Below are positions 28,145 to 35,158 of a DNA stretch of 64,000 nt, one piece after another. The position numbers were made by a program, and so were the translations under genes. The DNA lies in contig NW_019217795.1 in NCBI RefSeq assembly GCF_002571385.2, positions 899,708 to 963,707 of the forward strand, read 5' to 3'. The notes beneath the pieces are model-generated. The model saw nothing but the letters and a program-made list of their open reading frames with translations, made no database searches and was not told the origin of the DNA. Origin of the DNA: Stylophora pistillata. Taxonomy: Eukaryota. Within the stretch, counting starts at the first letter, position 1, and each line of letters begins with the position of its first letter.

Positions 28145-35158
<7,014 letters not shown>

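What the first reader, a model, noticed from the sequence alone, without database searches (positions are those of the whole stretch)
31292..31294. In-frame TGA in exon 3 of an otherwise pristine MK2 gene
Seen: exon 3 reads [21 protein letters not shown]; every other exon, splice site, catalytic motif and regulatory site is intact. Known: MK2 has Arg here (RIQDRGD), so CGA-to-TGA at a methylated gene-body CpG is the simplest origin. Skipping the 65-nt exon shifts the frame, so splicing cannot easily rescue it. Options: a recent null allele (germline or somatic) in the p38-MK2 stress pathway, a consensus error, or recoding (readthrough, or A-to-I editing to TGG). Automated annotation would probably split or mis-splice this gene.
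Basis: partly seen in the sequence, partly recalled or inferred. Interest (0 to 1): 0.7.

Follow-up and report, generated by a model that had tools for sequence, protein, structure and literature searches.

The report
Reference-only stop in coral MK2 kinase
This coral genome sequence has a premature stop codon in an otherwise intact MK2 stress-kinase gene, while public spliced contigs encode the same protein with arginine there, so the stop is likely a rare allele of the sequenced colony or an assembly error: ordinary, though it likely corrupted the public gene model.

Summary
Observation confirmed. TGA at 31292-31294 is codon 116 of a 352-codon, 10-exon MK2 (MAPKAPK2) gene with nine GT-AG introns and no other lesion. 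The window matches a Stylophora pistillata scaffold. The gene is not dead in the species: four distinct proteins on 92 short, spliced contigs read Arg116, and one (88 contigs) is otherwise identical to the window product. The 115-residue truncated product was not found. Readthrough, selenocysteine, A-to-I editing to Trp and splice rescue have no support. The assembly was haploidified. The best reading is a rare, likely heterozygous nonsense allele whose mRNA would be removed by nonsense-mediated decay (0.55); a consensus error is the main rival (0.33). The site lies in the window's most CpG-poor 3 kb (o/e 0.21), which fits CGA to TGA, but Arg/Lys variation in Pocillopora makes AGA about as likely. 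No DNA reads could be examined, so U-to-C editing is not formally excluded (0.02). Interest is low.

The parts
31292..31294 (+). Premature TGA, codon 116 of MK2; Arg in spliced contigs and in orthologues
28145..28312 (+). MK2 coding exon 1 (ATG, Gly-rich loop, catalytic Lys56); CpG-rich 5' end
30020..30159 (+). MK2 exon 2 (helix-C Glu67 to the hinge)
31255..31319 (+). MK2 exon 3, 65 nt, holds the stop; absent from GenBank model PFX33381.1
31443..31522 (+). MK2 exon 4 (HRD)
31631..31757 (+). MK2 exon 5 (DFG, activation loop T185)
32891..32966 (+). MK2 exon 6
33181..33305 (+). MK2 exon 7 (S235-P)
33719..33804 (+). MK2 exon 8
34308..34388 (+). MK2 exon 9 (T297-P)
35048..35158 (+). MK2 exon 10, coding part with terminal TAA (basic C-terminal tail)
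30895..30944 (+). Intronic 50-nt stretch that, put in place of exon 3, reproduces PFX33381.1 letter for letter; likely a gene-predictor artefact
   Evidence: exact match; 1 contig, no Logan source; weakest donor match, 4 of 9
29001..32000 (+). CpG-depleted block (o/e 0.21, the lowest 3-kb window; TpG and CpA in excess), likely a methylated gene body
31291..31296 (+). Cryptic donor-like GTGAGG that depends on T31292; its use would remove 29 nt and stop at codon 138, so it gives no rescue
36258..36263 (+). AATAAA, likely polyadenylation signal; the 3' UTR has no SECIS match

Best explanation
This is the MK2 (MAPKAPK2) kinase gene of the coral Stylophora pistillata with a stop at codon 116 where spliced contigs encode Arg, and the stop is likely a real but rare, probably heterozygous nonsense allele of the sequenced colony that the haploidifying assembler likely happened to keep. 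Shown: the stop, the otherwise intact gene, the Arg-bearing spliced contigs, the CpG-poor surroundings and the mis-spliced GenBank model. Inferred mechanism: one substitution in an Arg codon (CGA to TGA by deamination of a methylated CpG, or AGA to TGA; about even odds), germline or somatic. The stop lies 600 nt upstream of the last exon junction, so the mutant mRNA would be removed by nonsense-mediated decay. Any 115-residue product would hold only the kinase N-lobe, without HRD, DFG, the activation loop or the C-terminal p38-docking tail, so the allele would be a null. The other allele would supply normal MK2 and dominate transcript assemblies. The gene predictor could not cross the stop and likely invented a phase-compatible exon.
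For: P0026 (88 contigs, longest 2613 nt, whereas the gene spans 7 kb, so spliced) equals the window product at 351 of 352 positions, with R116. P0003 (1 contig), P0019 (2) and P0020 (1) also read R116. P0020's shifted tail shows two silent differences from the window (codons 156 and 165), so R116 sits on more than one haplotype. The allele carries no other amino-acid change, and its distance to the Pocillopora orthologue (16 of 352) is no larger than that of two intact neighbouring GPCRs (33 of 351, 15 of 308), so there is no sign of decay. The assembly used ALLPATHS-LG with HAPLOIDIFY=True on 221x paired-end Illumina reads (PMC5730576, passages); such an assembly keeps one allele at a heterozygous site and makes few substitution errors (own knowledge). 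The site is not in a homopolymer, and the window's only N is 27 kb away. Another window gene matches a Logan protein (5 contigs) at 330 of 330 residues. CpG count is 20 against 91.2 expected in 29000-31999 (P 2e-19), and methylation in this species lies mainly in gene bodies (PMC5990304, passages). Only 7 of the other 162 stop-creating substitutions are in Arg codons (6 AGA, 1 CGA), so a stop at an Arg codon inside the CpG-poor block modestly favours mutation over random error (inference).
Against: No sequence apart from the assembly shows the stop allele. The exact 115-residue truncated protein is absent from the collection, against 92 contigs with Arg; decay plus bubble-popping in assemblies would also give this, but so would an error. 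No DNA reads or DNA contigs over the site were seen (all empty), so heterozygosity is untested. Null alleles of a conserved kinase should be rare, so a base error has a comparable prior (rough own estimate). The CGA origin is not shown: Lys at 116 in 4 Pocillopora-type proteins suggests AGR in the sister genus.
Confidence: 0.55

Rival explanations
1. Assembly consensus error: the colony has an ordinary Arg codon on both chromosomes, and one base was mis-called during error correction, haploidification or gap filling.
For: The stop is seen only in the assembly: 92 contigs carry Arg, and the truncated product was not found. It is the single difference among 352 residues. The assembly went through digital normalisation and three rounds of gap filling (PMC5730576).
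Against: 221x paired-end coverage. No homopolymer, N or second copy near the site. The other 351 MK2 residues and 330 of 330 residues of a neighbouring GPCR agree with independent contigs. The change falls on an Arg codon in the most CpG-depleted block, where real C-to-T mutation is expected.
Confidence: 0.33
2. The sequenced colony is homozygous (or hemizygous) for the stop: a natural MK2 knockout genet, with the Arg contigs coming from other colonies.
For: The origin of the Arg-bearing contigs is not known, and at least one comes from a different haplotype (P0020). MK2 loss is viable in mouse (recalled).
Against: It needs a rare allele twice, or loss of heterozygosity. There is no second lesion or amino-acid drift. 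No second MK2 of this species appeared among the 5 proteins passing E 1e-55 or the 17.
Confidence: 0.04
3. The assembled copy is a recent duplicate (segmental or haplotype-specific) that has just become a pseudogene, collapsed with or separate from a working copy.
For: It would give an intact-looking gene with one stop plus Arg transcripts. Near-identical duplicates collapse in short-read assemblies (own knowledge).
Against: No second copy of any MK2 exon in the window and no second S. pistillata MK2 record. The rest of the genome could not be searched.
Confidence: 0.04
4. TGA is fixed in the DNA and the mRNA is edited (U-to-C or U-to-A) to an Arg codon, as in the stop-removing editing of hornwort and fern organelles (recalled).
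For: Formally fits all data in hand: the one DNA sequence has T and every spliced contig has Arg. No DNA copy with Arg was seen for this species (empty).
Against: Genome-based records of relatives encode Arg or Lys directly (for example RMX60710.1, CAH3045667.1, KAK2553363.1). There is no folded structure at the site (z +1.08; 169 of 200 shuffles fold as well) and no listed inverted repeat overlapping exon 3 (25 longest of 38 shown). I know of no such machinery for animal nuclear mRNA (recalled), and one search listed 2 papers, neither about this by title or abstract start.
Confidence: 0.02
5. Translational recoding or splicing bypasses the stop: readthrough, selenocysteine, A-to-I editing to UGG, or use of the alternative exon in PFX33381.1.
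For: The 50-nt intronic stretch is phase-compatible and has AG/GT ends. One loose SECIS-like hairpin starts at 36134.
Against: Spliced contigs encode Arg, not a stop or Trp, and include exon 3. No SECIS in Rfam at the gathering threshold over the window or at E up to 10 in 35040-37000; the hairpin has z -0.89 and its GA is not in quartet register. The context UGA-G is not a leaky one (recalled). All 9 in-frame donor/acceptor bypasses found delete conserved residues, and six of them replace these with intron-derived runs. PFX33381.1 has 1 contig and no Logan source, loses the GGELF motif and scores lower on Pkinase (202 against 226 bits).
Confidence: 0.02

Closest known systems
MAPKAPK2/3 (MK2/MK3) kinases
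   Same: Best solved-structure match is MK2 chain 6tca_A, E 1.6e-150 over residues 9-351; Pfam Pkinase 225.5 bits; all catalytic motifs and the C-terminal regulatory tail align; named coral and anemone orthologues are 73-95% identical.
   Different: The window allele has a stop at codon 116. The protein begins only a few residues before the kinase domain, so it lacks the N-terminal extension of the 400-residue MK2 chains.
GenBank PFX33381.1, 'MAP kinase-activated protein kinase 2' [Stylophora pistillata]
   Same: Same locus: nine window exons plus 30895-30944 reproduce it exactly, and it lies on a 1,521,465-bp contig, the same length as that of four neighbouring window genes.
   Different: It is 347 aa and replaces residues 103-124 (hinge to helix D/E region) with 17 unrelated residues, so it hides the stop and misstates the protein.
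Private loss-of-function alleles and base errors in haploidified reference genomes of outbred animals (general phenomenon, own knowledge)
   Same: A single nonsense change in a conserved gene, contradicted by transcript data, which breaks automated annotation.
   Different: Here the allele status is untested; nothing else sets this case apart.
Stop-removing U-to-C editing of hornwort and fern organelles; selenoprotein UGA recoding (both recalled)
   Same: An in-frame genomic TGA at a conserved residue.
   Different: Nuclear animal gene; relatives encode Arg or Lys in DNA; no SECIS; the conserved residue is Arg, not Cys.

Membership tests
MAPKAPK2/3 (MK2) kinases | Ser/Thr kinase domain whose closest solved relatives are MK2/MK3 | tested here: met
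   19 of 19 PDB sequences at E<=1e-100 are MK2 or MK3; Pkinase above cut-off
MAPKAPK2/3 (MK2) kinases | Catalytic Lys, helix-C Glu, HRD, DFG, APE | tested here: met
   K56, E67, 147-149, 170-172, 194-196
MAPKAPK2/3 (MK2) kinases | Three p38 phosphorylation sites and a C-terminal inhibitory helix with NES and basic NLS/docking tail | tested here: met
   T185-P, S235-P, T297-P and the tail align with 6tca_A; their roles are recalled
MAPKAPK2/3 (MK2) kinases | Activation by p38 and kinase activity | not testable with these tools
   needs an assay
Decayed unitary pseudogene | No intact product in the species; further lesions or relaxed constraint | tested here: not met
   intact ORF on 91 contigs (P0026, P0003, P0019); no second lesion; 16 of 352 differences to Pocillopora
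Selenoprotein | SECIS element in the 3' UTR | tested here: not met
Selenoprotein | UGA kept in mRNA and aligned to Cys/Sec in homologues | tested here: not met
   30 Arg, 4 Lys, 0 Cys of 34 covering proteins
A-to-I recoding of a stop (UGA to UGG) | Trp in transcript-derived proteins; double-stranded RNA around the site | tested here: not met
   0 of 34 Trp; fold z +1.08
U-to-C stop-removing RNA editing | T fixed in DNA and C in RNA of the same individual | not testable with these tools
   no reads; indirect attempts empty
Heterozygous nonsense allele | About 50% T in genomic reads, and the T allele depleted in mRNA | not testable with these tools
   only indirect support
Nonsense-mediated decay substrate | Stop more than 50-55 nt upstream of the last exon junction (rule recalled) | tested here: met
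   600 nt; decay itself not tested
CpG deamination origin (CGA to TGA) | Ancestral codon CGA at a methylated CpG | tested here: inconclusive
   CpG o/e 0.21 around the site, against Arg/Lys variation in Pocillopora; the Arg allele's codon was not read

The most novel reading that the evidence does not exclude
The TGA is fixed in Stylophora pistillata DNA and site-specific U-to-C RNA editing restores Arg116 in the nuclear MK2 mRNA: stop-removing reverse editing in an animal, acting as an on/off switch for the coral p38-MK2 stress pathway.
Probability: 0.02. Interest if true: 0.9.

Novelty: new member of a known kind. Interest (0 to 1): 0.15.

Why it matters
Mainly curation. The public protein for this coral's MK2 (PFX33381.1, UniRef100_A0A2B4SU17) likely carries an invented exon in the hinge region, so phylogenies, structure models, read counting on exon 3 and proteomics that rely on it would be wrong there. 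If the allele is real, the aquarium stock behind the reference genome would carry one null copy of a p38 effector. That matters modestly, because stress and MAPK-pathway work has used Monaco aquarium colonies of this species (PMC5990304, passages; whether it is the same genet as the genome was not established). It would also be a handy marker for somatic versus germline mutation and for nonsense-mediated decay in a clonal animal. If it is an error, it is one base to fix. Only the editing reading would be a discovery, and it is improbable.

Tried and rejected
Reading the base in DNA indirectly. Two antisense ORFs cross 31292 and would change residue with the base; exact look-ups and a homology search with one of them found nothing. 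The control, an exon-1 ORF running into intron 1, was also absent, so these blanks carry little information. Two pattern scans of bacterial and archaeal genomes for stray coral DNA over exon 3 gave 0 hits. The truncated 115-residue product was not in the collection.

Recoding and splicing. SECIS: none; six loose pattern hits, one folded with flanks (z -0.89), all rejected. RNA structure at the stop: none. Splice rescue: 9 in-frame combinations, all destructive; exon-skipping sets shift the frame or remove exons 2-4.

Second MK2 copy: none in the window, and none for this species. The largest cluster has 42 members, of which 40 were read and 15 listed, so 27 were not seen.

Dropped rows: the 149 further unnamed representatives are left out of every count here, because their origin is unknown.

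Literature. The supplement of PMC5990304 (2 of 3 files searched) lists MAPKAPK5 but not this gene, so its methylation was not confirmed. Searches (listings and abstract starts only) showed no paper on this stop or on coral MK2.

Full report
Observation. Ten exons between 28145 and 35158 join to 1059 nt, with 9 of 9 GT-AG introns and a single internal stop at codon 116 of 352. The motifs of an active kinase and the MK2 regulatory tail are in place. All 19 solved-structure sequences at E<=1e-100 are MK2 or MK3, and the aligned MK2 chain has Arg at the site.

Source and annotation. Exon 2 is 100% identical to PFX33381.1 of Stylophora pistillata. Four single-exon GPCRs of the window are exact matches on an NCBI contig of the same length, 1,521,465 bp. 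PFX33381.1 is 347 aa, and an exhaustive scan of intron 2 found one stretch, 30895-30944, that reproduces it exactly in place of exon 3. That stretch has the weakest donor match among those scored (4 of 9, against 5-8 for the nine real donors), removes the conserved GGELF motif, and has no Logan source.

The gene is alive in the species. Of 53 proteins cover the site: 30 have Arg, 4 have Lys, and none has Trp or Cys; 19 do not cover it. Four are near-identical to the window product, and all four have Arg: P0026 (351 of 352 identical, 88 contigs, longest 2613 nt), P0003 (1 contig, one more change), P0019 (2 contigs, one more change) and P0020 (1 contig, frameshifted later). A ten-exon ORF on a contig under 2.7 kb must be spliced, so these are transcript-derived (inference); their species is inferred from identity and was not traced. 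P0020's shifted tail exposes two differences that are silent in the MK2 frame (codons 156 and 165), so Arg116 occurs on more than one haplotype. The window allele shows no decay: 16 of 352 differences to the Pocillopora orthologue, against 33 of 351 and 15 of 308 for two intact GPCR neighbours. For contrast, a GPCR at 52.6-56.8 kb lies in three pieces separated by insertions. The exact 115-residue truncated product is not in the collection.

Recoding. Readthrough and selenocysteine insertion leave UGA in the mRNA, and A-to-I editing gives UGG; the spliced contigs show Arg. Rfam finds no SECIS, the one hairpin candidate I folded is no more stable than shuffles (z -0.89), and the 201 nt around the stop fold worse than 169 of 200 shuffles. 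The T completes a donor-like GTGAGG at 31291, but using it removes 29 nt and stops at codon 138. All 9 in-frame bypasses found are destructive. Only editing of U to C or A would turn a fixed TGA into Arg. I could not exclude it, because no DNA copy of the Arg allele from this species was seen: the antisense-ORF look-ups and two contamination scans were empty, and so was the control look-up. Against editing, relatives encode Arg or Lys in genome-based records.

Origin of the base. CpG o/e drops to 0.21 in 29001-32000, the lowest 3-kb window (median 0.94): 20 observed against 91.2 expected, with TpG and CpA in excess. This is the footprint expected of gene-body methylation, which is the main methylation pattern in this species (PMC5990304, passages); methylation of this gene itself was not confirmed. 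It fits CGA to TGA. But only CGA and AGA among Arg codons are one step from TGA. Lys at 116 in P. meandrina and three unnamed Pocillopora-type proteins, beside Arg in P. damicornis/verrucosa, implies an AGR codon in the sister genus, and this gene uses AGA six times and CGA once. Weighing a lower prior for CGA against its higher mutation rate, I put the two about even (own estimate).

Allele or error. The assembly was made with ALLPATHS-LG, HAPLOIDIFY=True, from 221x paired-end reads of aquarium colonies from the Gulf of Aqaba (PMC5730576, passages). Such an assembly shows one allele at each heterozygous site, and substitution errors at this depth are rare (own knowledge). The site has no homopolymer, N or second copy nearby. 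The stop falls on an Arg codon in the CpG-poor block, while only 7 of the other 162 stop-creating substitutions are at Arg codons, which modestly favours mutation. Against this, null alleles of a conserved kinase should be rare, and nothing outside the assembly shows the T. I put a heterozygous null at 0.55, error at 0.33, homozygous null at 0.04, a duplicate copy at 0.04, editing at 0.02 and other recoding at 0.02. If real, the stop is 600 nt before the last junction and would trigger nonsense-mediated decay, and any product would be an inactive N-lobe fragment (inference).

What is known and what was read. The protein is a member of the MK2 family by every sequence test run. The locus fails the tests for a decayed pseudogene, a selenoprotein and A-to-I recoding. 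Papers: PMC5730576, abstract and passages; PMC5990304, passages and a term search in 2 of 3 supplementary files; PMC8162421, search listing only, and its supplements were not seen and may bear on how later annotation handles the gene. Searches (listings and abstract starts) showed nothing on this stop, which is limited evidence of absence from print. The 149 further unnamed representatives were dropped from all counts. Raw reads, other assemblies and the metagenome contigs stayed unchecked.

Verdict. A real feature of the reference sequence but an ordinary kind of thing: a reference-specific nonsense base in a gene that is intact in the species. Interest 0.15. Its practical value is a likely wrong public gene model and a one-step test (read pile-up at 31292) that separates all the readings.

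Noticed in passing
window 9370-10551 (+), 12686-13714 (-), 38176-39231 (-), 62279-63205 (-): Four intact single-exon rhodopsin-type GPCRs, 37-45% identical to each other. Cluster members are named neuropeptide FF receptor 2 or substance-K receptor-like. PFX33380.1 is a 364-aa model of the 393-aa ORF at 9370 that lacks 29 internal residues.
   Followed up: partly
window about 52560-56790 (+): A fifth GPCR lies in three pieces. It is interrupted by a tRNA-like SINE head near 52910 (by eye; ARAGORN found no tRNA), a 100-nt duplication (53428-53527 and 53558-53657, 92%) and a decayed reverse-transcriptase-like element at about 53660-56100 (QGDPL motif by eye; no Pfam hit at E 0.01).
   Followed up: partly
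P0005 and P0022 (Oculina patagonica); P0035 (Acropora digitifera); P0023 (Desmophyllum pertusum): MK2 models are also broken in other coral annotations. In Oculina the gene is split at the same intron 2 into 103-aa and 249-aa models ten locus numbers apart on contigs of the same length; the A. digitifera model lacks the middle; the Desmophyllum one is partial. The cause is unknown; the Oculina site itself reads Arg.
   Followed up: no
MK2 residue 116 in Pocillopora-type proteins (P0004, P0029, P0032, P0033 against P0021, P0028, P0031): The residue hit by the stop varies between Arg and Lys within Pocillopora, although it is Arg in all other named orthologues seen.
   Followed up: partly
window 30211-30385 and 31844-32006: Two direct copies (79% over 175 nt) of a short repeat with internal inverted arms lie in MK2 introns 2 and 5, flanking exons 3-5.
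   Followed up: no
window 29001-32000; also 5001-6000: CpG depletion is confined to the 5' half of the MK2 gene body, and CpG recovers to about 0.8 from 32 kb. A second, weaker dip (0.47) at 5-6 kb has no gene assigned.
   Followed up: partly
window 31440-31448: The exon 4 acceptor is a tandem CAG-AAG-CAG; use of a later AG would drop one or two residues in frame.
   Followed up: no
P0020 (unnamed contig) against window 31637-31672: A spliced contig with a 2-nt loss after codon 153 and two silent differences: a divergent haplotype or lineage, with either a real frameshift or a contig error.
   Followed up: partly
window 58471; 58959-59465 (-): The window's only N, and next to it an ORF that looks by eye like the 3' end of a non-LTR retrotransposon protein (no Pfam hit).
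   Followed up: no
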